NCBI GenBank assembly: GCA_965205855.1
Contig: OZ242184.1
Location: 334,853 to 398,852 of the forward strand
DNA: 64,000 nucleotides
From: Thermodesulfobacteriota bacterium
Lineage (GTDB): Bacteria > Desulfobacterota_D > UBA1144 > Nemesobacterales > Mycalebacteriaceae
Reading direction: 5' to 3'
In this document: piece after piece, positions 7,957-48,289 of the stretch
Layout of the letters: the number at the start of each line of letters is the position of its first letter
Position numbering within the stretch: position 1 is the first letter of the stretch
Program-made: the position numbers and the translations under genes
Notes under the pieces: model-generated
What the model was told of the DNA's origin: nothing
The model's database searches: none
What the model saw: only the letters and a program-made list of their open reading frames with translations

Positions 7957-8892
7957 ATGATACAACGAAGACAAGCTCGCGACTTCAATCAATTCCATAA
8001 TTTTTTTGATTTCTCTGTCTCTTGTCGCTATATCCACAATCAGCGCGGTCATTATCATCAGCATATAGATGATTGACGCCCCAAACGCAGTTTCATATCC
8101 TCTGCCCCTGACCGCGCACCTTATAACCATGAAGTTGAAGTAGATGCCAAGGGCAAGCGCGGCGGCGGCAAAGTAGGCGGTCGCCATTCCGGTAAGAAAC
8201 ATTGTAAGGGTCAGTGGAATAAGTGAGATTGAATAGAGAACAATCAGAATGTTTGTGTATTTTTCACCGAACGCCACAGGAAGAACGTCAATTCCGGCTT
8301 TTTCATATTCATGGCTGTATTTCTGCGCAAGTGCCCAGAAGTGCGGCGGTTGCCACAACATCATAAAAATAAAAAGCAGAAGCGCGTCCGCGCCGATTTC
8401 GGGACTGATTGCCGTGTACCCGATAAGCACCGGAAGCGCGCCCGGGATTCCGCCGAGAATGGTTCCGAACGGGGAGTTTCTTTTGAGAAACATCGTGTAG
8501 AGAACCGTGTAACTCGCCGCGGCAAGGGTGATTAACAAAGCGTTGGGAAGATTTATCCAGATTGCGGAGACAACTGTCGCGCCTCCCATGAGAATGAATG
8601 ACAAAACAGCCGCGTTTTTCTCTCCAAGAAGCTCAAGCGCGTTCACTCTCGCGCAAAGTCTGTCCATAAGTTTGTCGGATTTTCTGTCCAGAAAGTTGTT
8701 GAAGATTGCCGAACCGGCCGCCGCAACCATAAGGGTAATGCAACCAAGCAAGGCGGTTTTTATTTCGGGGATACCACCGCCGGAAAGAACCATCCCGGCA
8801 AACCCGGTGAATACGACGCTGAGGATAATTCCCGGTTTTGAGAGGACAACCGCTGAAACCACAATTTCCCGAACGGGTTTTTTGCCGTCCAT
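7948..8892 (-). CDS. ctaB: protoheme IX farnesyltransferase (heme O synthase, UbiA family)
   Basis: UbiA-type multi-TM protein with NxxxDxxxD-like motifs. Start chosen at MDGKKP to abut the ctaA stop; the longer ORF would overlap ctaA by 95 nt. Confidence 0.8.
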   Translation of the reverse strand: MDGKKPVREIVVSAVVLSKPGIILSVVFTGFAGMVLSGGGIPEIKTALLGCITLMVAAAGSAIFNNFLDRKSDKLMDRLCARVNALELLGEKNAAVLSFILMGGATVVSAIWINLPNALLITLAAASYTVLYTMFLKRNSPFGTILGGIPGALPVLIGYTAISPEIGADALLLFIFMMLWQPPHFWALAQKYSHEYEKAGIDVLPVAFGEKYTNILIVLYSISLIPLTLTMFLTGMATAYFAAAALALGIYFNFMVIRCAVRGRGYETAFGASIIYMLMIMTALIVDIATRDREIKKIMELIEVASLSSLYHLI

Positions 8893-8893
8893 A

Positions 8894-9745
8894 CTAACCA
8901 ACCGGATTTTCGCCGCTTTCAAACCATTTGAAAAGACTGAACGAAAGAATATGCAGCGCAACAAGCAGATGGAGCGCGGTCGCGGCAAACTGAAGCCCCG
9001 AATGAATCATACCGACACCGATGACGACTTGAAGAAACACCGAGCCGAGAATCACATATGCGGCTTTTCGCATTTTGCTCCCGGCGTATGTGTGGGAGAA
9101 AACCGCCATACCGATTGCGAATAACGCTATGAGATATCCGAGGGCTCTGTGGAAGAAGTGATAAAGCACCACGCCGGAAAGGTCGGGCGGAATCCACACT
9201 CCGAGGCATTTGGGGAAGTCAGCTCCACAGGCAAGCCCCGCGTCCGAGTGGCGCACAAACGCGCCGGCAACCGCCTGAAAAAGAACAAGCGCGGCGAAGG
9301 CAAACCACATTCCGTAAATTCCCGATGTTGAAAGCCCGTTTCGGGGACTGGTCTCAAAACGGCTCATGTAAACCGTTATGCAGAAGATAAGAGCCGCGTT
9401 GGCGAAATGGACGGTTGTCAGGTCGGTCGGCAGTTTGAGCAAAACCACCGAGCCACCGAGCCCAATCTGGACAACAAGCAGAAAAATCGCGAGAGCCGGA
9501 AGCAGTTTCGCGGCTCCCGTGTATGACCTTATACGCCTTGCGGAAAGCCAGATTATAACAACCGCCGTGAATGCCCCGATAATGCGGTGGAGAAACTCGG
9601 CGTAGATATCCCAGCGCAAAGGCGGGAGAATCTTGCCGTGACAGAGAGGCCAGTCCGGACAGGCGAGACCCACCTTTAGCCCCGCGACGATGTTTCCCCA
9701 GACCAGAAGAATGACAAGGGATATTAAAGCCAGTCTGGAAAGCAT
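8894..9745 (-). CDS. ctaA: heme A synthase (COX15/CtaA family)
   Basis: Multi-TM protein with conserved His pairs, sitting between the cox operon and ctaB. Confidence 0.7.
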   Translation of the reverse strand: MLSRLALISLVILLVWGNIVAGLKVGLACPDWPLCHGKILPPLRWDIYAEFLHRIIGAFTAVVIIWLSARRIRSYTGAAKLLPALAIFLLVVQIGLGGSVVLLKLPTDLTTVHFANAALIFCITVYMSRFETSPRNGLSTSGIYGMWFAFAALVLFQAVAGAFVRHSDAGLACGADFPKCLGVWIPPDLSGVVLYHFFHRALGYLIALFAIGMAVFSHTYAGSKMRKAAYVILGSVFLQVVIGVGMIHSGLQFAATALHLLVALHILSFSLFKWFESGENPVG

Positions 9746-17554: not shown

Positions 17555-20017
17555 GTGTCCGATAAGAAAACATCACTGATGGCGGCTTTTGCGCTTTGCT
17601 TTGTCTTGCTATCTTGTAGCCAAGGTGGAAGTTCTCCCCAGCCTGTTTCTCCTCCTCCCGTTGTTTCTCCTCCTGTTTCTCCCCCTCCCGGTCAATCCAC
17701 CACCGTTGTTCCCCAGCCTCCTCCCACTGTTCCCGGTCCGACTAATCCGGACCCAGAACCTCAACTGCCTTCACTGGTGGAATCTCCGCCTCAAGGGTTA
17801 ACAGACGGGGAAATTGATGATTTTTATCACGACACATATCTGGGACTCTCCGGGTCGGCAGTAGAACTTCGTATTGTTAACCTGCCCGGAGCATATCGAA
17901 ACATTTACAAAGCGCGCGGCGAGAGTGAGGCGGCACGTCCGGGCAAAGGGGTTACAATAGGTTTTGTTGACAGCGGTCTTGATACGGAACATCCGTCGTT
18001 CAGGGAGGATGATGGCAAGGCTGTGGAAGTTGAGTATTTTGGCACATCGAAGGATGCGGATATAGGCAACCTAGTCTCCTCCCACGGAACGGCTGTCGCC
18101 AGTATTGCCGCCGGAGCGAGGAGTTGGTGTCTCAACGACGTGACTAACTGTACGCTAAACAATGAAGGAGGGCTTTCCCTCGAAGGTATTGCTCCGGGAG
18201 CCAATATCTTTATGTTTGCGTTTAATGTTGATAGTCCAAATTGGGTTCACAATGCCGGGCGTGCTATTGCGGCGGCTTTTGAAAGAAATGTTGATATATT
18301 GAATTTAAGTTTCAGCGAGGCGGAAGGCATTGTTACCGATGCACGCTTTACAGGGAATACGGATCAGTTTTTAGGGCTGGTGGGCCGGCAAACAGACAGA
18401 GAGGAAAAAACAATTTTTGTATGGTCCGCCGGAAATCTCAATGGAAGTGTATGCACTTCCCCTGCGATTTCGAGCAGTTGCGTAGACGGGCGTATTCGTG
18501 CAACGTCGCCTAATGTTCTAGCCGGGTTGCCTTATCACGTGCCCGAACTGAAACCTTTCTGGGTTGCCGTTGTTTCCACAGACCTGAATCCGGGAGAGAT
18601 TTCCAGTTTTTCCAACAGGTGTGGAGTTGCCAAAGAATGGTGCATAGCGGCTCCGGGAGAAAGGATAGGAGTTGCCGTCACTTCCATGGAAGGAGAGAGA
18701 AGGATCAGCTCAATCGGACTCAGGAACGGCACATCTTTCTCCGCCCCCATAGTCTCCGGCGGACTTGCCTTGATGAAACAGGTTTTCCGGGGTCAGATAA
18801 GCAATGTTGAATTGGTTCAAAGAATGTTTGCCACTGCCAACAAAGACGGAATATACTTTGACACAGAAATATACGGGCAGGGGCTTTTAGACCTCGAAAA
18901 AGCAACCAATCCAGTAGGGACGGCGGGTTTTGCGTCCGTCGGAACGCAGTTTCTGGACGCCGAGGGGACATTGTTTTCCCCTCTTTATGCCGCGCAAATG
19001 GAAACGTCACAAGCGTTTGGAGACGGGCTTGAAAAATTTCTTGCGCAACAGGAAGTCGCGGCTTTTGACAGTCTCGGAGCCCCGTTCTGGTATCCGCTTG
19101 AGAAGTTTTTCAGCAGAGAGGAAGTCCCGTTTCTTCAAAGGCAACTAAGCGATTTTATTGATTTTACGGCATCAGGTAAATCAAGAGCCGGCCCCCCACT
19201 CCCGCGGGGTTCAAGGGTGTCCGCGCCGCTTTTCCGGGGCAAAGTCGCAAAGGGTCTGGAAGAGGAGCAAATGCCTGAGATTTACATTTCAACGACGCGG
19301 AGCGGGATTGAAGACCCGAACCGTCTTGGTAAATCGGGACATCTGTCTTTTATTGACAACCCTCTGTTTGCAGGGGTGGATTCCGGCAACTTTGACGTTT
19401 TCGCTTTCACTTCCGGGGAAAGGGTGGAAAGGCACGGTCGCGGAGTGGTCGCTTCATTCCGTCTGCCAAACCTGCCTCTGGGTTTTCGCTCCGGCTACAT
19501 CTCGGAGTCAAGGTCTGCGCTTGGGGCAACTGCGGAAGGCTTGTTTGGCGGATTTTCTGCGCAAACCGTTTTCGCAAGCATCGGCTGGGAATACGGATTT
19601 GGCGGCTGGCGGCTTGTCGCTGAAGCGGAGGCGGGAGCCGTTTATCCCGAAGCGGAAACGGGATTTGTCGGTGGCTTGTCGCAGCTTTCGACAAGTTCAT
19701 TCTCCGCCGGGTTGATACGTGAATTTCCCGACGGCTTGACCATGAAGTTTTCAGTTTCTTCGCCGCTCAGGGTTGAAAGTGGACACATGGAGTTTGTAAT
19801 TCCCGTTGGAAGAACGCTGAAAGGGGAGATACTGAGAGACAAGGCAACCGCGAACCTTGAACCGTCCGGAAGGCAGGTGGACATCGGGGCGCAAGTGGTG
19901 GTGCAAACCTTGCTTGGAAGGGTGAGTTTGGGTGGAGTGGTAAGCCATGAACCCGGACACGATAAGGACGCGGAAGTTTCCCTATCTTTTCTGGCCGGTT
20001 ACAGCGCGAATTTTTAA
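17555..20017 (+). CDS. subtilisin-like (S8) serine protease autotransporter/lipoprotein with Pro-rich linker
   Basis: GTG start. Lipobox LLSC. PS-rich linker. Catalytic triad motifs GFVDSGLD, SHGTAVAS and GTSFSAPIVSG. C-terminal amphipathic beta-strands ending in ...YSANF (terminal Phe). Confidence 0.7.
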   Translation: MSDKKTSLMAAFALCFVLLSCSQGGSSPQPVSPPPVVSPPVSPPPGQSTTVVPQPPPTVPGPTNPDPEPQLPSLVESPPQGLTDGEIDDFYHDTYLGLSGSAVELRIVNLPGAYRNIYKARGESEAARPGKGVTIGFVDSGLDTEHPSFREDDGKAVEVEYFGTSKDADIGNLVSSHGTAVASIAAGARSWCLNDVTNCTLNNEGGLSLEGIAPGANIFMFAFNVDSPNWVHNAGRAIAAAFERNVDILNLSFSEAEGIVTDARFTGNTDQFLGLVGRQTDREEKTIFVWSAGNLNGSVCTSPAISSSCVDGRIRATSPNVLAGLPYHVPELKPFWVAVVSTDLNPGEISSFSNRCGVAKEWCIAAPGERIGVAVTSMEGERRISSIGLRNGTSFSAPIVSGGLALMKQVFRGQISNVELVQRMFATANKDGIYFDTEIYGQGLLDLEKATNPVGTAGFASVGTQFLDAEGTLFSPLYAAQMETSQAFGDGLEKFLAQQEVAAFDSLGAPFWYPLEKFFSREEVPFLQRQLSDFIDFTASGKSRAGPPLPRGSRVSAPLFRGKVAKGLEEEQMPEIYISTTRSGIEDPNRLGKSGHLSFIDNPLFAGVDSGNFDVFAFTSGERVERHGRGVVASFRLPNLPLGFRSGYISESRSALGATAEGLFGGFSAQTVFASIGWEYGFGGWRLVAEAEAGAVYPEAETGFVGGLSQLSTSSFSAGLIREFPDGLTMKFSVSSPLRVESGHMEFVIPVGRTLKGEILRDKATANLEPSGRQVDIGAQVVVQTLLGRVSLGGVVSHEPGHDKDAEVSLSFLAGYSANF

Positions 20018-25094: not shown

Positions 25095-25168
25095 GGGCCC
25101 ATAGCTCAGTTGGTCAGAGCAGCGGACTCATAATCCGTTGGTCCCAGGTTCGAGTCCTGGTGGGCCCA
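25095..25168 (+). tRNA. tRNA with CAU anticodon (elongator Met, or Ile2/lysidine type)
   Basis: 74-nt cloverleaf: 7-bp acceptor GGGCCCA/TGGGCCC, D-arm GCTCAGTTGGTCAGAGC, anticodon loop CTCATAA, T-arm CCAGGTTCGAGTCCTGG, discriminator A. The 1:72 pair is G:C, so it is not an initiator. Close resemblance to E. coli ileX as well as metT. Confidence 0.85.
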
Positions 25169-26334: not shown

Positions 26335-26698
26335 GCGAGTCGGTCGGGCAGTCGCCCGGGTTTTATAAACCCGGGAGGAAAGTCCGGGCTTCTCAGGACA
26401 AAGCGCCGGCTAACAGCCGGGTGCCGCGAGGCAACGGAAAGTGCCGCAGAAAACAGACCGCCGGTCCTTATTGGACGGGTAAGGGTGAAAAGGTGGTGTA
26501 AGAGACCACCGCGGAAAACGGTAACGATTTCCGGCATGGTAAACCCCGCTTGAAGCAAGACAAATATGGAAACACTGCGCGTTTTGCGCGGGAGGTTGTC
26601 CGTCTCCATGTTTCCGGGTTGTTGCTACAGGCGACCGGTAACGGGCGTCGCAGATGAATGGCTGCCCTTGACAGAACCCGGCTTACAGACCGACTCGC
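26335..26698 (+). ncRNA. rnpB: RNase P RNA, bacterial type A
   Basis: P4 hallmark AGGAAAGTCCGGGCT with its 3' partner ACAGAACCCGGCTTA, GGGTAAGGGTGAAAAGGTGGTGTAAGAGACCACC (P10-P12 region), and P1 pairing GCGAGTCGG/CCGACTCGC. About 364 nt. The ORF-track entries over this span are spurious. Confidence 0.85.
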
Positions 26699-27528
26699 TA
26701 TTTAAGAACATCAACAGTGATTTTTTTATCAATAAGCCCTTTTTTAAACGCTTTTTCGTAAAGCAATCCGATTGCCGCTTCGCCGTTCTTTCCAATATCG
26801 CGCGTGTATTCGTTTACATACATCAAAACAAAGCGCTCGGCTTTCTCGCGGCTTATACCCCGTGAAAAACTCATCGCGTATTCAAGCGCCTTGTCCTTGT
26901 TTGAAAGCGCGTATTCTATGCTTTCGCGGTGCAGCCTGAGCGCTTCCGAAGCGATTTCTGCGGGCGTGTTCCTTTTTATCACATTCAGTCCGAGCGGAAG
27001 CGGAAGGGATGTGTCTTTTTTCCACAAAACCCCGAGGTCAAAAACCAGATTCAAGCCTTCGTTTTCGTAGGTAACCTGTCCCTCATGTATGAGAAGTGCG
27101 CAGTCGGTTTTGCCGGATTTTACCGCGTCTGTTACCAGATCAAACGGCATTTCAACCGGCGTGAATCCTTCCGCGTAGAGGCGCAGGAGAAGATACGCGG
27201 TGGTCAGTTCTCCTGGTACCGCAACCGTTTTTCCCTCCACGGAATCAAAATTGGAGAGAGAAACCACCACCGGGCCGTAGCCAATTCCCATGCTTGCCCC
27301 GCATGACATCACGCGGTAACGGTCTTTGACGGTGGGATAGTTGCGTGCCGATATGGCGGTCATTTCAAGCTCGCCCCGAAGTGCTCTTTCGTTTAAAGAC
27401 TGTATATCTTCAACCACATGAACGATTTCCAGAAGCGGTGAGGAAACTGCCCCGCATGACATCGCGTAAAACATAAAAGCGTCATCGGCGTCCGGGCTGT
27501 GTCCGAGTTTCATGGAAATTTTTTTCAT
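26698..27528 (-). CDS. mqnD: 1,4-dihydroxy-6-naphthoate synthase (futalosine pathway; MqnA/MqnD superfamily)
   Basis: N-terminal LGHSPDADDAFMFYAM resembles the MqnD SPCPND motif. Periplasmic-binding-protein-like fold family, adjacent to mqnA. Confidence 0.5.
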   Translation of the reverse strand: MKKISMKLGHSPDADDAFMFYAMSCGAVSSPLLEIVHVVEDIQSLNERALRGELEMTAISARNYPTVKDRYRVMSCGASMGIGYGPVVVSLSNFDSVEGKTVAVPGELTTAYLLLRLYAEGFTPVEMPFDLVTDAVKSGKTDCALLIHEGQVTYENEGLNLVFDLGVLWKKDTSLPLPLGLNVIKRNTPAEIASEALRLHRESIEYALSNKDKALEYAMSFSRGISREKAERFVLMYVNEYTRDIGKNGEAAIGLLYEKAFKKGLIDKKITVDVLK

Positions 27529-37026: not shown

Positions 37027-39612
<2,586 letters not shown>

Positions 39613-39615
39613 GTT

Positions 39616-42171
39616 ATGCAGGACTATTCGCGATTTCTCAGCCGTTGTTCAAGTTGGGAGCAGTTTTCGGATTACACAGGCTCCCTGAAAACCGCGAAAG
39701 AGAAGGGCGACCTTTTTGAAAAACTGGTTTGGACATATCTGACAGTCCATCCCGAATACAGGACAAAGCTTTCCAATGTTTGGTTGCTCCGCGATGTTCC
39801 GCAGGCGGTTACCCGCAAGCTCAATCTTCCGTCTGCCGACGAGGGTATAGACCTGATTGCGCAAGCTCGCGGCGGCGGGTTCTGGGCGATACAGGCAAAA
39901 TACAGGTCTGACAAAGACAAAGCGCTGAACACCCGCGACCTTGCGAAGTTTTTGCACCTTTCTTTTACCCATTGTAACGGCATAACCCACGGCGTTATTG
40001 CGCACACGACTTCAAAGCCCGTACGGAAAAAAAATTTGCTTGGTAATGTGGTTGAAATCGGTCTTTCGCGCTGGCAGGAACTCTCGCCCGAAGGGTGGGA
40101 CGCAATCCGCGCGAAGGTGGCGAACAAGGTTCACAATCTCGTGCCGCGCAAACCGAGGAGACATCAGAAGGCGGCAATCGCCAACATACGCAAGCATTAC
40201 GCGGAAGAAAAAAAGCCGAGGGGCAGGATGATTATGCCTTGCGCGTCCGGAAAAAGTCTCACGGCGTTCTGGGCAGCGCAAGCCCTTAAAGCGAAGACGG
40301 TTGTTCTTGCCGTGCCGAGTCTTTTGCTCGTAAAGCAAAGCGTCAAAGACTGGACTCGCGAGTATCTCGCCCATAATGAGACACCGGACTGGCTTTGTGT
40401 TTGCAGCGATGAGACTGTTGGCAAGATAGAGGACAGTTTTGTTTCAAACATATACGAAACGGGGCTTCCGACCACAACGGACGCAAAAGAGATAGCAGAC
40501 TTTCTGAGAAAACGCTCATCTGTGCCGAGGGTGATTTTTACAACCTACCAAAGCAGTCCCCGGCTTGCGGAGGCGGCGCGCAAGTCCGGGCGCGAGATAG
40601 ACCTCTGCATACTGGACGAAGCGCACAAGACAGTCGGGGAAAAAGATTCCGCTTTTGCGACCTTGCTTGACAACAGGAAACTGAAAATCAAAAGGCGGCT
40701 TTTTATGACTGCCACAGAAAGGGTTCTTCACGGAAAAAACGATGAAGTTCTGTCAATGGATGACGAGCGGACTTACGGCGGGTGTTTTTATCAACTCACA
40801 TTCAGGCAAGCGATTGAGGACGGCATTATATGCGATTATAAGATTCTGACTCTTACGATTTTGGACGCGCAGGTACGCGAGATTGTTGAGAGAAACAGAC
40901 TTGTGAAAGACAGATTGCTTGCTCAGCAGACCCGTGAGTCCGCGCCGCTTGCCGCGGGAATTGCGCTCGGCAAGGTGTTCAACGAACACTGCATTAAACA
41001 CGCGGTTTCATTTCACAAAAGCATAAAATCCGCTACCGATTTCAAATCCCAGCAGGAAGACCTTTCAAAGTCTCGCGTTATCAAAACAAAGATTGAGAAC
41101 TTTCATATTTCAAGCAATCTGTCCGCCGGAGAGCGAACGGTTGTGATGCGCGATTTTGAGCAATCCCAAAGGTCTCTTATAACAAACGCCAGATGTTTGA
41201 CCGAAGGGGTTGATGTTCCCGCGATTGATTGTGTTCTTTTTGCAGATCCCAAGCACAGCGTTATTGACATTGTTCAAGCGGCGGGAAGGGCGATGCGTCC
41301 GAAAGAGGGAAAAGAGAGGGGCTACATACTCCTGCCGATTGTTGTGCCGGACGGGATGAGTGTTGAGGAATTTGCGGAAACAACCCCGTTCAAAAAGGTT
41401 GCAAGTCAGATTACCGCGCTGTCCACTCAGGACGAGAGAGTCAAGGAAGAGTTCAGGGCGATTACCGAAGGGAAAAGGCCAAGCGCGCAAGGGCGGCTTT
41501 TTTCAATCAGCGGCGATGTTCCCGCCGGAATGAATATCAGTCTCAAACAGTTTTCCGATGCGATTGAAAGCAAAATTTGGGAAAAGGTTGCCAAAGTTAA
41601 TTGGAGGGTTTTTAAAGAAGCGCGGGATTATGCGCAGTCGTTGAGACTAAAAAGTGCAACGGAATGGCGCGAACACACAAAGTCATCCGATTTTCCGTCA
41701 GATATTCCTGTTGATCCCAACCGAACATACAAAGACAAAGGATGGGTTAATTGGGGAGATTGGCTTGGGACTGGAAATATAGCTAATTTTCTCAAAGAGT
41801 ACCGTTCTTTTAAAGAAGCGCGGGATTATGCGCAGTCGTTGCAACTAAGAAGTAGAACGGAATGGCGCGAACACACAAAGTCATCCGATTTTCCGTCAGG
41901 TATTCCTGTTGATCCCTACCGAACATACAAAGACAAAGGATGGGTTAATTGGGGAGATTGGCTTGGGACTGGAAATATAGCTAATTTTCTCAAAGAGTAC
42001 CGTTCTTTTAAAGAAGCGCGGGATTATGCGCAGTCGTTGAGACTAAAAAGTGCAACGGAATGGCGCGAACACACAAAGTCATCCGATTCTCCGTCAGATA
42101 TTCCTGTTGCTCCCGACCAAATATACAAAGACAAAGGATGGGTTAATTGGGGAGATTGGCTTGGAAAATAA
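39616..42171 (+). CDS. Mrr-like restriction-endonuclease-fold / SF2 DEAH helicase fusion protein with three C-terminal tandem repeats
   Basis: Mrr_cat-like N-terminus (FEKLVWTYL...DEGIDLIA...QAKY). Walker A CASGKS, DEAH (ILDEAH), motif III TAT and motif VI QAAGRAMR. Three 66-aa repeats FKEARDYAQSL...KDKGWVNWGDWLG at the C-terminus. The start is 4 nt after the gyrB stop. Confidence 0.7.
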   Translation: MQDYSRFLSRCSSWEQFSDYTGSLKTAKEKGDLFEKLVWTYLTVHPEYRTKLSNVWLLRDVPQAVTRKLNLPSADEGIDLIAQARGGGFWAIQAKYRSDKDKALNTRDLAKFLHLSFTHCNGITHGVIAHTTSKPVRKKNLLGNVVEIGLSRWQELSPEGWDAIRAKVANKVHNLVPRKPRRHQKAAIANIRKHYAEEKKPRGRMIMPCASGKSLTAFWAAQALKAKTVVLAVPSLLLVKQSVKDWTREYLAHNETPDWLCVCSDETVGKIEDSFVSNIYETGLPTTTDAKEIADFLRKRSSVPRVIFTTYQSSPRLAEAARKSGREIDLCILDEAHKTVGEKDSAFATLLDNRKLKIKRRLFMTATERVLHGKNDEVLSMDDERTYGGCFYQLTFRQAIEDGIICDYKILTLTILDAQVREIVERNRLVKDRLLAQQTRESAPLAAGIALGKVFNEHCIKHAVSFHKSIKSATDFKSQQEDLSKSRVIKTKIENFHISSNLSAGERTVVMRDFEQSQRSLITNARCLTEGVDVPAIDCVLFADPKHSVIDIVQAAGRAMRPKEGKERGYILLPIVVPDGMSVEEFAETTPFKKVASQITALSTQDERVKEEFRAITEGKRPSAQGRLFSISGDVPAGMNISLKQFSDAIESKIWEKVAKVNWRVFKEARDYAQSLRLKSATEWREHTKSSDFPSDIPVDPNRTYKDKGWVNWGDWLGTGNIANFLKEYRSFKEARDYAQSLQLRSRTEWREHTKSSDFPSGIPVDPYRTYKDKGWVNWGDWLGTGNIANFLKEYRSFKEARDYAQSLRLKSATEWREHTKSSDSPSDIPVAPDQIYKDKGWVNWGDWLGK
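41611..42171 (+). repeat. three tandem 198-bp direct repeats (last copy truncated) at about 96% nucleotide identity, inside the CDS
   Basis: Copies start at 41611, 41809 and 42007. Only about 7 mismatches between copies 1 and 2. Confidence 0.9.
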
Positions 42172-42199
42172 GCCGCTTTCAATTTCCGATTGGGGGCTA

Positions 42200-43975
42200 T
42201 CAGATTTTAAATTGGACGCTAATCAATAATCCCACAACCCTTTCCGCCGCTTTCTCAATCTCAACATTCTCCGTCTTATCCGTCAGGCGGTTCTTAACCT
42301 CAACCACTCCGTTTTTGAGTCCTCTCGGTCCCGCGATAATCTGAAACGGAATTCCAATCAGCTCGCAGTCTTTGAATTTTACGCCCGCGCTTTCGTCCCT
42401 GTCGTCAATCAGGGCGTCTATGCCCGCTTCAATGAGTTTTTTATAGATGCCTTCTGCGACCGAAACTGTTTGCTCATTGCCCATGCTTGTTGGAATAACG
42501 GCGACTTCAAAAGGCGCTATGGCGGGCGGAATAACCATTGATTTGCCGTCGTTGTTCTGCTCTATTGCGGCGGCGGCGGTTCTGCCTATTCCTATTCCGT
42601 AACATCCCATTACAAACGGCTTCTCGCTTCCGTCCGAATCGGTGAAAGCAGCCTCCATCGCCTCGCTGTATTTTGTTCCGAGCATAAAAACATGGCCAAC
42701 CTCTATGCCCCTTATTGAAGACAGTTTTCCGCCTTCGCACGACGGGCAGCCGTCCCCGTCCGCTGCGACACGGATGTCAAGAAATGCGTCCGGGGTGAAA
42801 TCCCTTCCTTCGCTCACATTTGTTATGTGCGCGTCTTTTCTGTTAGCGCCCGCAACGGCATTTGTCATTGCGCGAATTGAAATGTCCGCAACTATTTTGA
42901 CTTTCTCCTTCATTCCCACGGGCCCGCTGAAACCCACCGCGCCGCCGCAGACGCGCATAATCTCTTCCGCATTCGCAAGTTCGGCGGTTTCTGTGCCGAG
43001 CGCCTTTTTCAGTTTTGTCAGACTGAGTTCCCCGTCTCCGCGCACAAGAGCGGCAACCGTCCCGTCGTTTGTTGAAATAATCATCGTCTTTATCAAATCG
43101 GACGGACTTACTCCGAGAAATTTTGCGACATCCCCGACCGTTTTCATCCCCGGAGTTTCAACCTCACTGATTTCGCCGGGGTTTGCTCCAGTTTTTTCCG
43201 TCTCCGCTTCCGCTACCCCCGCAAGTTCGAGGTTTGCCGCATAGCCGCACTTTTTACATGTCATCACAACATCCTCGCCCGTGGGAGCGAGAACCATGAA
43301 CTCGTGCGACTCGCTTCCGCCGATGTTTCCCGTGTCCGCAAGCACGACACGAAACTCAAGGCCACAACGTTTGAAAATTCTGTTGTATGCGTCAAACATT
43401 TTTCCGTATGAGATTTTTGCGTTCTCAACAGAGGAGTCAAAGCTGTATGCGTCCTTCATTATAAATTCGCGCGCGCGCATTATGCCGAAACGGGGGCGGA
43501 TTTCATCCCTGAATTTTGTCTGTATCTGATAGAAATTCACGGGAAGGTCTTTGTAGGAACGTAAATCTCTCGCGGCTAGGTCGGTGATTATCTCCTCATG
43601 CGTGGGGCCTATGCAGAAATCCCTGTCCGCTCTGTCGTGCAAACGCAGGAGTTCCTTGCCGTAATGGTCCCACCTGCCGCTTTTTTTCCAGAGCTCGGCG
43701 GGAAGAACGGTCGGAAGAAGCGCCTCAATCGCGCCCGAAGTGTTCATCTCTTCACGGACTATTTTTTCTATTTTTCTCAAAAATCGCAGACCGAGCGGCA
43801 GATAGTCGTATATTCCCGCCGCGACTTTTCTTATCATCCCGGCGCGCGCCATAAGTTTGTGGCTTGCGACTTCAGCGTCCGCGGGGTCGTTCTTGAGAGT
43901 CGGTATGAAATATGAGGAAAATCTCAATTTGTTATGTCCCGCCGGAGAAGAGATGGCATTACAATGCGTATTCAC
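42200..43975 (-). CDS. proS: prolyl-tRNA synthetase (bacterial type with editing domain)
   Basis: Class II motifs, N-terminus LRFSSYFIPTLKNDPADAEVASHKLM. The start may be a non-ATG codon near 43927. Confidence 0.9.
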   Translation of the reverse strand: MNTHCNAISSPAGHNKLRFSSYFIPTLKNDPADAEVASHKLMARAGMIRKVAAGIYDYLPLGLRFLRKIEKIVREEMNTSGAIEALLPTVLPAELWKKSGRWDHYGKELLRLHDRADRDFCIGPTHEEIITDLAARDLRSYKDLPVNFYQIQTKFRDEIRPRFGIMRAREFIMKDAYSFDSSVENAKISYGKMFDAYNRIFKRCGLEFRVVLADTGNIGGSESHEFMVLAPTGEDVVMTCKKCGYAANLELAGVAEAETEKTGANPGEISEVETPGMKTVGDVAKFLGVSPSDLIKTMIISTNDGTVAALVRGDGELSLTKLKKALGTETAELANAEEIMRVCGGAVGFSGPVGMKEKVKIVADISIRAMTNAVAGANRKDAHITNVSEGRDFTPDAFLDIRVAADGDGCPSCEGGKLSSIRGIEVGHVFMLGTKYSEAMEAAFTDSDGSEKPFVMGCYGIGIGRTAAAAIEQNNDGKSMVIPPAIAPFEVAVIPTSMGNEQTVSVAEGIYKKLIEAGIDALIDDRDESAGVKFKDCELIGIPFQIIAGPRGLKNGVVEVKNRLTDKTENVEIEKAAERVVGLLISVQFKI

Positions 43976-45737: not shown

Positions 45738-46763
45738 TCAGGAATCTTTGACTCCGGCCTGCGTGAGAATTGCCTTTCGTATCTCGCGCGCGAGCGGAAG
45801 GTTTTCGGCGAGAAACTCAACCGTTTTCTGCCTTCCCTGTCCGAGTTTCTTGTCTCCGTAGGAAAAATACGCGCCCTTTTGCTGGATTATTTTGTATTGT
45901 GTTCCGATGTCGATAATCTCGCCAAATTTGGAAATTCCTTTTCCGTAGACTATCTCCACCTCGGCAGCCCTGAACGGCGGTGCGACCTTGTTTTTCACCA
46001 CGCGCACCCTTGCCTTGATTCCGGTTATTTTGTCGTCCTTATCTTTCATTGAGGAGATTCTTCTCACATCCATTCTTACTGAGGAGTAAAAACGCAAAGC
46101 CGTTCCTCCGGTTGTCGTTTCGGGATTCATATAGGAGGGAACCCCGATTTTTTGCCTTGTCTGGTTTATAAATATGACCGTGGTTCCGGATTTGGAGACG
46201 CTTCCGGTAAGTTTTCTGAGAGCCTGAGACATCAGCCTTGCCTGAAGTCCGACATGAGAATCGCCCATTTCGCCGTCTATTTCCGCTTTCGGAACAAGTG
46301 CGGCGACCGAGTCAATAACCACAAGATCAACCGTGCCGCTTTTTACCAGAGTGTCCACTATTTCAAGCGCCTGTTCGCCGCTGTCGGGTTGCGAAACAAG
46401 CATCTCCCTGAGGTTCACTCCGAGAGCCCTTGTGTAACGCGGGTCAAGCGCATGCTCCGCATCCACAAACGCGGCGATGCCTCCCTTTTTCTGGCACTCG
46501 GCGATGGCGCTTATGGCAATGGTTGTTTTTCCCGAAGACTCCGCGCCGTAAATCTCAATAACCCTTCCTCTCGGCAAACCCCCGACTCCGAGAGCGATGT
46601 TTATCCCTATGGAGCCAGTGGATATAACCTGAATGTCGGACACTTTCCCGTCTGCGCCGAGGGTCATAATTGCTCCCTCTCCGAACTGTTTTTGTATGAG
46701 AGAGATAACCTTGTCCACTGAACTTTTTGTTTCACCGGGTTGGGCTTGTTCTTTTGTCGCCAT
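45738..46763 (-). CDS. recA: recombinase A
   Basis: [16 protein letters not shown] Walker A and a full RecA core. Confidence 0.95.
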
Positions 46764-46774
46764 TTTATTACTCC

Positions 46775-47302
46775 TTAAGGTTTCCGGGAAAGGACGCCGA
46801 GCGCCGATCTCCTTATCATATCAAGAGCCCTGGATACCGACTGATTTCTTATACCGGAACGTTTTCCTTTGAGCTCGCACTTGACACAAACCGCATTGTC
46901 CTCGGCTTTGCGGCTGCTCACGGCAATGTAAACAGTTCCGACCGGCTTTTCAAACGACCCTCCGCCGGGTCCCGCTATTCCCGTTATGCTGACCCCGATG
47001 TCTGCGTCGAAGCGCTTTTTTGCGGCGTTTGCCATTGCTATTGCGACCTCTTTGCTCACTGCGCCGTTTTTTTCAATCACCGACGCCGGCACGCCAAGGA
47101 TTGCGGTTTTTGATTCATTTGAGTAAGTAACCGCGCCGCCGTGGAAATAATCCGAACTTCCGGCAACCCCGGTAAGCGCAGAGGCGAGCATTCCTCCCGT
47201 GCAGGATTCCGCCGCCGCGACCGTGAGGTTTTTTTCTCGTAAAGCTGCGGCAACTGTTTCGGCAAGACACGCTCCTTCGCTACTTTTCAACTTATCAGCC
47301 AA
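46775..47302 (-). CDS. CinA C-terminal domain protein / NMN amidohydrolase PncC-like
   Basis: About 175 aa CinA_C domain ([11 protein letters not shown] motif). Confidence 0.75.
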
Positions 47303-47765
47303 ATCCCGCGATCTCCAAAGCCCTCACCGCGGCTATGCACAGCCCGGCAAGTAAACCAGCATATACATCGTCCAGCACGATGCCCCAGCCCCCGGAAAGA
47401 TTTTCAATCCGGCGGGAAGGGGGGATTTTCATTATGTCGAAAAGCCTGAAGAGAACAAATCCCGCAATAACTTCACGTGCCTGCCCCGAAGAAAAAAGCA
47501 TTGCGGTGAAAAACCCCGCCGCCTCGTCCATGACTATTTTTTGCGGGTCTTTTTCTCCGAAAGCCCGCGCCGCTCCGTTGCAGATAAAAACGGACGCGCC
47601 CGTGAAAATTACGCAGAAAAGCGCAAACTCGAAAGACCCGAAACTGGCGAGGAAAAAGACGTAAAACAGTGCCGCTCCCGCCGTGCCGAAGGTTCCCGGA
47701 GCAAAAGGGACATATCCAAGCCCGAAAAGCGAGGATAAGATTTTTTTCGCCCGTCCCCTGTTCAG
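47295..47765 (-). CDS. pgpA: phosphatidylglycerophosphatase A
   Basis: The conserved [18 protein letters not shown] motif is encoded in-frame upstream of the first ATG (47531). No ATG/GTG/TTG lies between it and the upstream TGA (47781-47783). The 5' boundary is approximate. Confidence 0.65.
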
Positions 47766-48289
47766 TTTGCGTCTCCCGACTCAATTTCCAGAAGTATCTT
47801 TTTCATCTCAACTCCGCCCCCTCCGCTGTATCCGCCCAGCCCTTTGTTTCCGACAACCCTGTGGCACGGAATAAGTATCGGAAAAACATTTGCCGCAAGC
47901 GCCTGAGCAACCGCTCTGCGGTGGTTTTTACCGCCGACTTTCGCGGCTACGGCGGAATAAGTCGCCGTCTTTCCGTAAGGGATTTTTGATATCTCCTTCC
48001 AGACATTCATGCGGAACTCGGACGCTTCCGGAAAGACAAGGGAGGTGCCCGCGTGTCTGCCGTTTCCCTCAACCGCGGACAAAACACTTGAAAGCCCGGA
48101 ATTAAGGTGTCCCAGAACTTCGGGCGGAATTTTCCGCGTGTTTGAGTCCGCGAGGGGTTTCTTTCCAAGCCCGACCGATATGTGGCATAATCCTTCTTTG
48201 CTCGCGTGCACGGTTATAAAAAACCCCTGTTTGACTTCAACTGTTTTGGAGAAAATCGACCGCCGTGTCATTTGAGAAAACCGCTCCAT
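47762..48289 (-). CDS. ogt: methylated-DNA--protein-cysteine methyltransferase
   Basis: Active-site PCHRVV motif and a C-terminal HTH. Confidence 0.8.
   Translation of the reverse strand: MERFSQMTRRSIFSKTVEVKQGFFITVHASKEGLCHISVGLGKKPLADSNTRKIPPEVLGHLNSGLSSVLSAVEGNGRHAGTSLVFPEASEFRMNVWKEISKIPYGKTATYSAVAAKVGGKNHRRAVAQALAANVFPILIPCHRVVGNKGLGGYSGGGGVEMKKILLEIESGDAN

What the first reader, a model, noticed from the sequence alone, without database searches (positions are those of the whole stretch)
41611..42171. Three near-identical 198-bp in-frame tandem repeats at the 3' end of the helicase gene
Copies begin at 41611, 41809 and 42007. They differ at only about 7 of 198 positions, roughly 96% nucleotide identity; the third copy is truncated by the stop. 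Identity this high at synonymous sites implies recent duplication or ongoing concerted evolution. The copy number may vary between strains and tune a binding function. Each copy encodes a W-x2-W-x-D-W-L-G motif that suggests a ligand- or nucleic-acid-binding repeat.
Basis: seen in the sequence. Interest (0 to 1): 0.7.

Follow-up and report, generated by a model that had tools for sequence, protein, structure and literature searches.

The report
Short, homogenised repeat array on nuclease-helicase
The three near-identical 198-bp repeats are real: they are an unusually short, recently homogenised array of an uncharacterised 66-residue helical domain (Pfam "integrase repeat") that, in a widespread family of restriction-enzyme-like nuclease-helicases, replaces the usual methylase and DNA-recognition domains and turns over fast between close relatives.

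Summary
Observation confirmed. There are 2.8 in-frame copies of a 198-bp unit at 41611-42168. They end an 851-aa ORF (39616-42171) that follows gyrB.

The N-terminal 612 aa are the Mrr-nuclease plus SF2-ATPase module of Type ISP restriction enzymes (LlaBIII, E 4e-66). The coupler, methyltransferase and target-recognition domains are absent, and the repeat array takes their place.

Each unit is a diverged INT_rpt (PF14882) domain of unknown function. AlphaFold models it confidently as a small helical bead, and no solved structure resembles it.

More than 2000 homologues share this architecture. Complete ones carry 4-11 units; this one has 3, with the highest unit-to-unit identity seen.

- The three units are each other's closest relatives.
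- Syntenic orthologues have 8-9 units.
- Alleles 99.7-100% identical differ by exactly one unit.
- Alleles with 95-98% identical cores carry arrays only 50-60% identical, with saturated synonymous divergence.

The array therefore evolves by unit gain and loss, homogenisation and whole-array exchange.

Inferred, not shown: the array is the DNA-targeting or recognition module of a methylase-less, single-protein restriction-like enzyme. It is a new variant of a known kind, of moderate interest.

The parts
39616..42171 (+). Complete ORF of 851 aa plus stop: Mrr-like nuclease, SF2 ATPase, then three INT_rpt-like units. The ATG lies 3 nt after the gyrB stop.
   Evidence: The identical protein P0005 is present in a public 1.4-Mb contig.
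39745..40017 (+). Mrr-family (PD-(D/E)xK) nuclease domain, aa 44-134. Motif D75-x-G-I-D79 ... Q93-A-K95.
   Evidence: Pfam Mrr_cat_2, E 2e-15. It aligns to the LlaBIII nuclease with the motif conserved. G77, D79, Q93 and K95 are invariant in 74 homologues.
40150..41451 (+). SF2 helicase-like ATPase, two RecA cores, aa 179-612. Motif I is GKS (212-214), motif II is DEAH (334-337), motif III is TAT (365-367) and motif VI is QxxGRxxR (554-561).
   Evidence: Pfam ResIII, DEAD and Helicase_C. PADLOC REase_MTase_IIG, E 6e-101, over model positions 11-645 of 1646. PDB 4xqk LlaBIII, E 4e-66, residues 27-651. The motifs are invariant.
41452..41610 (+). Short linker, aa 613-665. The model shows a helix, a strand and a helix. 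No match to the Type ISP coupler.
   Evidence: The LlaBIII alignment ends at query residue 612. Secondary structure comes from the full-length AF2 model.
41611..41808 (+). Repeat copy 1, aa 666-731. It equals the three-copy consensus at all but one position.
   Evidence: HMM score 98 bits.
41809..42006 (+). Repeat copy 2, aa 732-797. It differs from copy 1 at 7 nt, which change 5 residues. Five of the 7 nt cluster within 14 nt.
42007..42168 (+). Repeat copy 3, aa 798-851. It is the family-typical truncated terminal unit ending in DWLGK.
42157..42175 (+). Terminator-like hairpin spanning the stop codon (consensus match only).
37093..39612 (+). gyrB, immediately upstream and probably co-transcribed. 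The true start is probably downstream of 37109.
   Evidence: Translation. The same gyrB-helicase adjacency occurs in L003 and L004. A promoter-like site lies at 37081-37109.
42200..43975 (-). proS, convergent downstream neighbour. It leaves only 28 nt after the array and no room for further units.
   Evidence: Pfam. A six-frame HMM scan finds no other unit in the window.

Best explanation
The three repeats encode the C-terminal array of a Type ISP-like nuclease-translocase. That enzyme has an Mrr nuclease and an SF2 ATPase but lacks the coupler, methyltransferase and target-recognition domains. Tandem ~66-aa INT_rpt units occupy their place. Each unit is a ~53-aa helical bead followed by a ~13-aa linker.

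**Shown**
- The array is an ancient feature of a family of more than 2000 proteins.
- It evolves by unit gain and loss and by homogenisation. Long exact repeats (122 nt here) can drive this through unequal recombination or slippage.
- Whole arrays are occasionally replaced between alleles.
- The window's array is an extreme product of that process. It has 3 units where other complete members have 4-11, it has the highest unit identity seen, and its units are each other's closest relatives. It was therefore recently collapsed and/or re-amplified from essentially one unit.

**Inferred**
- The array is the DNA-engaging or target-selecting module. It would load the motor-nuclease onto DNA, as the MTase-TRD clamp does in LlaGI and LlaBIII.
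- With no methylase in the protein or next to the gene, the enzyme would work as a solitary restriction-like or defence nuclease. Alternatively it acts on a DNA feature other than an unmethylated site.
- The number of units and their variable residues would tune affinity or specificity. The candidate positions are unit columns 15, 16, 19, 34 and 36-38.
For: **Anatomy**
- The nuclease and ATPase motifs are invariant in 74 homologues.
- AF2 models three units at pLDDT 90.5 with pTM 0.48, that is, independent helical beads. The full-length model has pLDDT 86.8.

**Family and unit counts**
- 2080 homologues have the same architecture.
- 102 complete-looking members carry 4-11 units, one dubious member carries 1, and the window protein carries 3.
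- The truncated last unit is universal.

**Recent homogenisation**
- Within-array nt identity is 0.94 here. It is 0.64-0.87 in five relatives. It is at most 0.77 between arrays.

**Copy-number polymorphism**
- Alleles 99.7-100% identical differ by exactly one unit.

**Whole-array exchange**
- L002 and L005 have cores 98.2% identical (pS 0.00-0.16). Their arrays are about 58% identical in aa, with pS 0.6-0.9, and the boundaries fall at the array edges.
- At least 17 pairs have cores 90% or more identical but arrays only 49-84% identical.
- Identity between units of different proteins plateaus at 55-67% whatever the core identity.

**Parallel with Type ISP enzymes**
[quoted passage not shown] LlaGI and LlaBIII are about 80% identical overall but 58% in the MTase-TRD unit (PMC4872093).

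**DNA-related role of the unit**
- The same repeat is fused to integrase, GIY-YIG, NUMOD-like, REase, SNF2 and methyltransferase domains. It also occurs on giant-virus SF2 helicases.

**Genomic context**
- In other lineages the gene sits beside integrases or a resolvase.
- No methylase neighbour was found in any of nine loci.

**Where the copies differ**
- Differences between the window's copies fall in family-variable columns (Mann-Whitney p = 0.02).
- They are mostly non-synonymous, 12 N to 2 S between copies 2 and 3.
Against: - No direct evidence shows that the unit binds DNA.
- The window unit's net charge, counted by eye, is only about +1.
- The window protein itself scores below Pfam's INT_rpt gathering threshold, 17.5 against 26.5 bits.
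- In this lineage the gene lies in a housekeeping neighbourhood, 3 nt after gyrB. That position is conserved in three small genomes and is unusual for a defence gene.
- The database is clustered at 90% identity. Pairs with an identical core and a different array are therefore over-represented among the pairs I could see. Clusters such as P0076's (7 members of 1233-1234 aa) show that arrays are often stable.
- pN/pS of 1.7 among the three copies rests on about 12 changes and is not significantly above 1.
- A 3-unit array might instead mark functional decay.
Confidence: 0.6

Rival explanations
1. The array is a protein-binding sensor or adaptor rather than a DNA reader. It would recognise a phage protein, as the variable repeat sensors of other defence ATPases do, or it would dock a partner. 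Exchange of arrays would reflect an arms race with protein targets.
For: - The arrays are hypervariable and exchangeable on a conserved enzymatic core.
- The units are beads on a string with conserved scaffold positions and variable surface positions.
- The fold resembles no known DNA-binding domain.
- The window unit carries a weak net charge.
Against: - The same unit is fused to many unrelated DNA enzymes: integrase, GIY-YIG, NUMOD-like, REase, MTase and SNF2. A shared protein target is hard to reconcile with that spread.
- The array occupies the position of the DNA-clamping MTase-TRD of Type ISP enzymes.
- Standalone proteins of 1-2 units exist.
Confidence: 0.2
2. In this lineage the protein is a housekeeping DNA-repair or replication helicase-nuclease co-expressed with gyrB. 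The array would be a generic nucleoid or DNA tether whose length matters little, so contraction to 3 units would be neutral drift in a streamlined genome.
For: - The order gyrB-X-proS-ispG-tsaB-recA is conserved in the window, L003 and L004.
- The gap to gyrB is 3 nt and no internal promoter-like site is found.
- The gene is retained in genomes of 1.2-1.5 Mb.
- There is weak similarity to RadD.
Against: - Close relatives (cores 70-75% identical) sit at unrelated loci: metH in L002 and L005, fumC in L001.
- More distant relatives sit beside integrases or a resolvase.
- Wholesale array exchange between alleles 95-98% identical is not expected for a neutral tether.
- The best matches are restriction enzymes at E 1e-66 to 1e-101, against RadD at 5e-10.
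Confidence: 0.15
3. The three copies, or their number, are an assembly artefact. Either one unit was duplicated by the assembler, or a longer near-identical array was collapsed to three.
For: - Arrays of this family do disturb assemblies. A SAR86 contig ends inside a homogeneous array.
- An error-prone long-read contig shifts frame about once per unit.
- Exact runs of 83-122 nt could collapse in short-read assembly.
Against: - The three copies carry distinct, codon-respecting differences placed at family-variable positions.
- The frame is intact and the last unit ends at the family-typical position.
- Both flanks are unique sequence, and proS begins 28 nt downstream.
- The array architecture is universal in the family.
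- Duplication by an assembler would give identical copies. Collapse of additional internal copies cannot be excluded without reads.
Confidence: 0.05

Closest known systems
[quoted passage not shown]
   Same: - N-terminal Mrr-family nuclease with the D...D...QAK motif.
- SF2 helicase-like ATPase, homologous over about 590 residues (E 4e-66 to LlaBIII).
- Single-polypeptide design.
- Conserved motor and nuclease with a highly variable C-terminal module (PMC4872093).
   Different: - No coupler, no gamma-class N6-adenine methyltransferase and no TRD. The protein ends 240 aa after the ATPase.
- The C-terminal module is a tandem array of INT_rpt beads.
- No methylase gene was found nearby in any of nine loci.
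Pfam PF14882 INT_rpt ('integrase repeat unit', formerly PHINT_rpt)
   Same: - Tandem helical units of about 55-66 residues built around a G-W...G-D-W-L-G core.
- Most homologues carry precomputed PF14882 hits.
- 26 of 56 sampled array proteins hit it, down to E 5e-29.
   Different: - The window's units are diverged and score below the gathering threshold (17.5 bits).
- The Pfam model covers 55 positions, and mainly positions 7-32 match here.
- The family has no known structure or function (PMC8078820 lists it among repeat families without a structure).
Single-chain Type IV (modification-dependent) nuclease-helicases such as SauUSI (PDB 7CLG)
   Same: - Nuclease, then SF2 helicase, then a C-terminal recognition domain in one polypeptide.
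- No cognate methylase.
- Weak helicase similarity (E 1.4e-5).
   Different: - SauUSI has a PLD-family nuclease and a single globular recognition domain, not an Mrr nuclease with a repeat array (from my own knowledge of that family).
- Modification dependence is untested here.
Concerted evolution and copy-number polymorphism of in-frame tandem domain repeats (for example bacterial surface-protein repeats)
   Same: - Units are more alike within an array than between orthologues.
- Polymorphism occurs in steps of whole units.
- Long exact repeats provide a recombination substrate.
   Different: - The repeats sit on a cytoplasmic DNA enzyme.
- In addition to unit-level dynamics, whole arrays are exchanged between alleles, with saturated synonymous divergence.

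Membership tests
Pfam INT_rpt (PF14882) | Match to the PF14882 HMM at or above the gathering score (26.5 bits) | tested here: not met
   The window protein scores 17.5 bits (E 0.005) and a single unit scores 14.3 bits.
Pfam INT_rpt (PF14882) | Homology to bona fide INT_rpt units through intermediates | tested here: met
   - Orthologous arrays carry precomputed PF14882 hits.
- 15 of 66 diverse units hit at E <= 0.01.
- 26 of 56 proteins found with the unit profile hit PF14882, down to E 5e-29.
Pfam INT_rpt (PF14882) | Tandem units of about 55-66 residues, several per protein | tested here: met
   The period is 66 aa, with 3 units here and 4-12 in homologues.
Type ISP restriction-modification enzyme | N-terminal Mrr-family nuclease with catalytic D...(D/E/Q)xK | tested here: met
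   Mrr_cat_2, E 2e-15. The motif aligns with LlaBIII and is invariant in the family.
Type ISP restriction-modification enzyme | [quoted passage not shown] | tested here: met
   ResIII and Helicase_C. LlaBIII E 4e-66 and LlaGI E 2e-49.
Type ISP restriction-modification enzyme | All-helical coupler domain | tested here: not met
   The alignment to LlaBIII stops at residue 651 of 1578. Only 53 residues lie between the ATPase and the repeats.
Type ISP restriction-modification enzyme | Gamma-class N6-adenine methyltransferase domain | tested here: not met
   Pfam, NCBIfam and PADLOC give no methyltransferase hit. PADLOC covers only model positions 11-645 of 1646.
Type ISP restriction-modification enzyme | C-terminal target-recognition domain (TRD) | tested here: not met
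   The C-terminus consists entirely of INT_rpt units.
Type ISP restriction-modification enzyme | ATP-driven translocation and collision-dependent cleavage of unmodified DNA | not testable with these tools
   This is a biochemical property.
Type IV (modification-dependent) restriction enzyme | Cleaves only modified DNA and has no cognate methylase | tested here: inconclusive
   No methylase lies in the protein or beside the gene in nine loci. Modification dependence cannot be tested here.
Known anti-phage defence systems (PADLOC-DB 2.0) | Full-length match to a catalogued defence protein | tested here: not met
   Only partial matches over the nuclease-ATPase half: REase_MTase_IIG, REase_MTase_I and PbeA.

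The most novel reading that the evidence does not exclude
INT_rpt arrays are modular DNA readers. Each helical bead would contact a short stretch of DNA through a few variable residues. The candidates are unit columns 15, 16 and 19 at the start of helix 2, and columns 34 and 36-38 in the P-x-x-P-x-x-x-Y loop.

The order and number of units would then set the target of a methylase-less Type ISP-like restriction enzyme. Under this reading, unit shuffling and whole-array exchange are how specificity is reprogrammed. That would be analogous in logic to TRD swapping or to TALE-type repeat codes. The window's 3-unit array would be a freshly reset specificity.
Probability: 0.1. Interest if true: 0.85.

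Novelty: new variant of a known kind. Interest (0 to 1): 0.5.

Why it matters
If the inference holds, thousands of bacterial genes, plus relatives in giant viruses and jumbo phages, encode a restriction-like motor-nuclease that is targeted by a repeat array rather than by a methylase-TRD clamp.

- That would give a function to an uncharacterised Pfam repeat family, which has 7917 clusters at 50% identity.
- It would add a single-gene candidate defence system that PADLOC-DB 2.0 (2023) does not list as its own system (one search gives only partial matches over the nuclease-ATPase half).
- It would offer a natural series of arrays, from 3 to 12 units, for testing how the number of units and the variable residues set DNA binding.

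The window's 3-unit version is the smallest intact member seen. That makes it a convenient minimal construct.

On its own, however, the local observation is an ordinary case of repeat homogenisation and contraction.

Tried and rejected
- **PDB by sequence, unit profile.** Only chance-level hits, best E 0.18.
- **Foldseek against PDB.** Nothing below E 3.7.
- **afdb50 library.** Unavailable.
- **Literature on INT_rpt, PHINT_rpt and PF14882.** Only lists, with no functional study. A search for Mrr-helicase repeat proteins gave nothing relevant.
- **The search for homologous proteins with the unit profile.** It returned only short proteins of 1-2 units, so the architecture survey was done with the exhaustive representative search instead.
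- **Genome-contig scan.** One distant locus only, from SAR86. The source organism was not identified beyond Dadabacteria-like relatives.
- **Look-up of the window protein's own contig.** Not on record.
- **First impression that 3 units was a lone outlier against 6-12.** That list was ranked by a score that grows with the number of repeats. A core-only search showed many 'short' homologues. Most of these proved truncated or frameshifted, and genuine 4-unit members exist.
- **Recombinant origin of copy 1 (5' like copy 3, 3' like copy 2).** Rejected as the simplest reading. Site 92 breaks a single-breakpoint pattern, and copy 1 simply equals the consensus.
- **Positive selection among the three copies.** Not claimed. 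The count of 12 non-synonymous to 2 synonymous changes is compatible with neutrality.
- **In-situ positive selection as the cause of the array divergence between L002 and L005.** Rejected, because synonymous sites are saturated.
- **Other copies or silent cassettes in the window.** None found in a six-frame HMM scan.
Full report
**1. Observation**

Tandem Repeats Finder reports a single array at 41610-42164: period 198, 2.8 copies, 94% matches and no indels. It is the only substantial tandem repeat in the window.

The copies begin at 41611, 41809 and 42007. They lie in frame at the 3' end of the ORF 39616-42171, which encodes 851 aa.

Differences between copies:
- Copies 1 and 2 differ at 7 of 198 nt (96.5% identity).
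- Copies 1 and 3 differ at 8 of 162 nt (95.1%).
- Copies 2 and 3 differ at 14 of 162 nt (91.4%).

Copy 1 equals the three-copy consensus at every site but one. Adjacent copies share a 122-nt exact run, and copies 1 and 3 share an 83-nt run. Nearly all differences change the amino acid: 12 non-synonymous against 2 synonymous between copies 2 and 3. With so few events this is compatible with neutrality, and I do not claim positive selection.

**2. The protein**

Residues 44-134 are an Mrr-type nuclease. Residues 179-612 are an SF2 ATPase (Pfam). This half matches:
- PADLOC's Type IIG/ISP restriction-methylase model at E 6e-101, but only over model positions 11-645 of 1646;
- the solved Type ISP enzymes LlaBIII (4XQK, E 4e-66, residues 27-651 of 1578) and LlaGI.

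The nuclease motif (D...D...QAK) and helicase motifs I, II (DEAH), III and VI align with LlaBIII. They are invariant in 74 family members.

Nothing corresponds to the coupler, methyltransferase or TRD that define Type ISP enzymes (PMC4872093). After a 53-residue linker, the protein consists only of the three repeat units.

PGAP-annotated 'type ISP restriction/modification enzymes' on plasmids match the core only. No plasmid record covers the array.

**3. The repeat unit**

An HMM built from homologous units finds three units here, at 98, 93 and 81 bits, and none elsewhere in the window in any frame.

The consensus is EEARxFVRxLxLKSxxEWxxxxxSxxxPxDIPxxPxxxYxxxGWxxxGDWLGTGxxAxxxRxYRxF.

The window protein scores below Pfam's INT_rpt (PF14882) threshold, at 17.5 bits. 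The relationship is nonetheless clear through intermediates:
- most homologues carry precomputed PF14882 hits;
- 15 of 66 diverse units hit the model;
- 26 of 56 proteins retrieved with the unit profile hit it, down to E 5e-29.

INT_rpt has no known structure or function. The only paper that discusses it lists it among repeat families without a structure (PMC8078820).

AlphaFold2 results:
- With a 36-sequence alignment, residues 660-851 are modelled at pLDDT 90.5 but pTM 0.48. Each unit has a 10-residue helix, a turn (LKS), an 8-residue helix and two short helical turns. Units are joined by a ~13-residue linker, like beads on a string.
- The full-length model (pLDDT 86.8, pTM 0.76) gives the same units.

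Every array examined ends in a truncated unit that stops just after DWLG. The 'truncation by the stop' is therefore the family's design: the last bead needs no linker.

**4. Family-wide behaviour of the array**

More than 2000 proteins share the architecture. My first count gave 6-12 units in 119 homologues against 3 here. That ranking was biased, because its score grows with the number of repeats.

A core-only search returned many proteins of 690-830 aa. These end at arbitrary unit positions or in frameshifted tails. In one case examined at DNA level (L010), the array continues for about 11 units but changes frame roughly once per unit at a G-run. That is a sequencing-error signature.

Among 103 complete-looking proteins the counts are as follows:

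| Units | Proteins |
|---|---|
| 1 (dubious) | 1 |
| 3 (this window) | 1 |
| 4 | 5 |
| 5 | 10 |
| 6 | 20 |
| 7 | 16 |
| 8 | 19 |
| 9 | 14 |
| 10 | 13 |
| 11 | 4 |

The window's array is thus the shortest intact one seen, though not by a wide margin. It is also the most homogeneous:
- mean unit identity is 0.87 at aa level, against a family median of 0.57-0.58;
- it is 0.94 at nt level, against 0.64-0.87 in five relatives.

Its three units are each other's nearest relatives and are at most 77% identical to any unit of the related arrays.

Differences between the copies fall preferentially in the family's variable columns (Mann-Whitney p = 0.02). In the three youngest arrays, non-synonymous differences concentrate at unit columns 15, 16, 19, 34, 36-38, 45-47 and 58-60.

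**5. Three modes of array evolution**

(a) Unit gain and loss:
- P0030 and P0350 are 99.7% identical apart from one 66-aa indel.
- P0076 and P0344 are 100% identical apart from one 71-aa indel, which is that subfamily's period.
- The syntenic orthologues of the window gene have 9 units (L003) and 8 units (L004).

(b) Homogenisation or duplication within arrays:
- Within-array identity ranges from 0.64 to 0.94.
- L002 contains two non-adjacent units that are 98.7% identical.
- A SAR86 contig breaks inside an array whose first two units begin identically.

(c) Whole-array exchange:
- L002 and L005 share the same neighbourhood, and their cores are 98.2% identical (pS 0.00-0.16, pN 0.01).
- Identity collapses exactly at the start of the array to about 58% aa, with pS 0.6-0.9 and pN 0.11-0.29. 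It recovers in the last ~20 codons and downstream.
- Saturated synonymous divergence means the array came from a distant allele. It did not diverge in place.
- At least 17 pairs have cores 90% or more identical but arrays only 49-84% identical.
- Identity between units of different proteins plateaus at 55-67% whatever the core identity.

Caveat: the database is clustered at 90% identity, so such pairs are over-represented among the pairs visible to me. Some clusters show stable arrays.

The same contrast, a conserved first half against a variable recognition half, is reported for Type ISP enzymes (PMC4872093).

**6. Genomic context**

In the window the gene starts 3 nt after the gyrB stop and converges on proS. 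Then come ispG, tsaB, recA, cinA and ogt.

L003 and L004 share this order. The cluster of P0003 includes a protein from Candidatus Mycalebacterium zealandia, and P0014 and P0032 are labelled Candidatus Dadabacteria.

Equally close relatives sit elsewhere: after metH in L002 and L005, and near fumC in L001. More distant ones lie next to integrases or a resolvase (L006, L008).

No methyltransferase gene is adjacent in any locus.

**7. Interpretation**

Shown: the repeats are real. They encode folded INT_rpt-like domains. They belong to an ancient but fast-evolving array, and the window's array is a recently contracted and/or homogenised extreme.

Inferred: the array is the DNA-engaging or target-selecting module of a methylase-less Type ISP-like nuclease-translocase. 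The inference rests on:
- its position in place of the MTase-TRD clamp;
- its TRD-like evolutionary behaviour;
- fusion of the same unit to integrase, GIY-YIG, NUMOD-like, REase, SNF2 and methyltransferase domains;
- the island contexts of distant homologues.

Rivals are a protein-binding sensor, a housekeeping helicase with a neutral tether (supported by the gyrB linkage), and an assembly artefact. The artefact is unlikely for the existence of the copies. Collapse of extra copies cannot be excluded without reads.

**8. Novelty and score**

The repeat family and the nuclease-motor module are both known. Their combination, a Type ISP-like enzyme whose methylase and TRD are replaced by an exchangeable INT_rpt array, does not appear as its own entry in PADLOC. 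I found no paper on it in the searches I ran. I therefore rate it a new variant of a known kind.

The local finding itself is an ordinary example of repeat dynamics. The family-level pattern is what deserves follow-up. Interest 0.5.

Noticed in passing
L010 4996-7175 (ENA contig_28267, protein P0409): The INT_rpt array continues for about 11 units but changes reading frame roughly once per unit, near the G-run in the GWxGxGDW codons. Many 'short' (690-830 aa) family members in the database are therefore frameshift or contig-end artefacts rather than short arrays.
   Followed up: partly
L009 6900-7245 (SAR86 single-cell assembly, contig end): The contig ends inside unit 2 of the array, and unit 2 begins identically to unit 1. 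Short-read assemblies break inside homogeneous arrays.
   Followed up: partly
L002 (P0004) units 1 and 8, protein residues 665-730 and 1125-1190: Two non-adjacent units are 98.7% identical at nt level in an array whose mean unit identity is 70%. This points to recent intragenic duplication or gene conversion.
   Followed up: partly
L002 vs L005, gene coordinates about 8000-9700: The loci are about 94-99% identical in their flanks, but the array has been replaced wholesale (9 versus 6 units, at most 72% nt identity). The donor of the foreign array is unknown.
   Followed up: partly
Phage records MN047793.1 228410-228790, AP018399.1 225458-225838, LR745208.1 217167-217700; BFVD A0A1V0SLK7 (Klosneuvirus): Jumbo phages of Xanthomonas and Stenotrophomonas, and SF2 helicases of giant viruses, carry INT_rpt-like units. 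In the phage records they are annotated as hypothetical proteins or not annotated at all.
   Followed up: no
window 39610-39618 and 37081-37109: The helicase ATG lies 3 nt after the gyrB stop. The only strong promoter-like site (11 of 12) lies at 37081-37109. It overlaps the listed TTG start of gyrB (37093), so the real gyrB start is probably further downstream.
   Followed up: no
window 42157-42175: A terminator-like hairpin is formed partly by the last repeat's TGGCTTGG and the sequence just after the stop codon.
   Followed up: no
window 17632-17688: A 15-nt tandem repeat (TTCTCCCCCTCCTGT, 3.8 copies, 71% matches) lies near the start of the 820-aa ORF 17555-20017.
   Followed up: no
window 26336-26701 and 25095-25168: Bacterial RNase P RNA class A (316 bits) and the window's only tRNA (tRNA-Met, CAT).
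   Followed up: no
window 45738-48289 (minus strand): recA, cinA and an ogt-like (6-O-methylguanine DNA methyltransferase) gene lie just downstream of the proS-ispG-tsaB block, so DNA-repair genes cluster near the nuclease-helicase.
   Followed up: no
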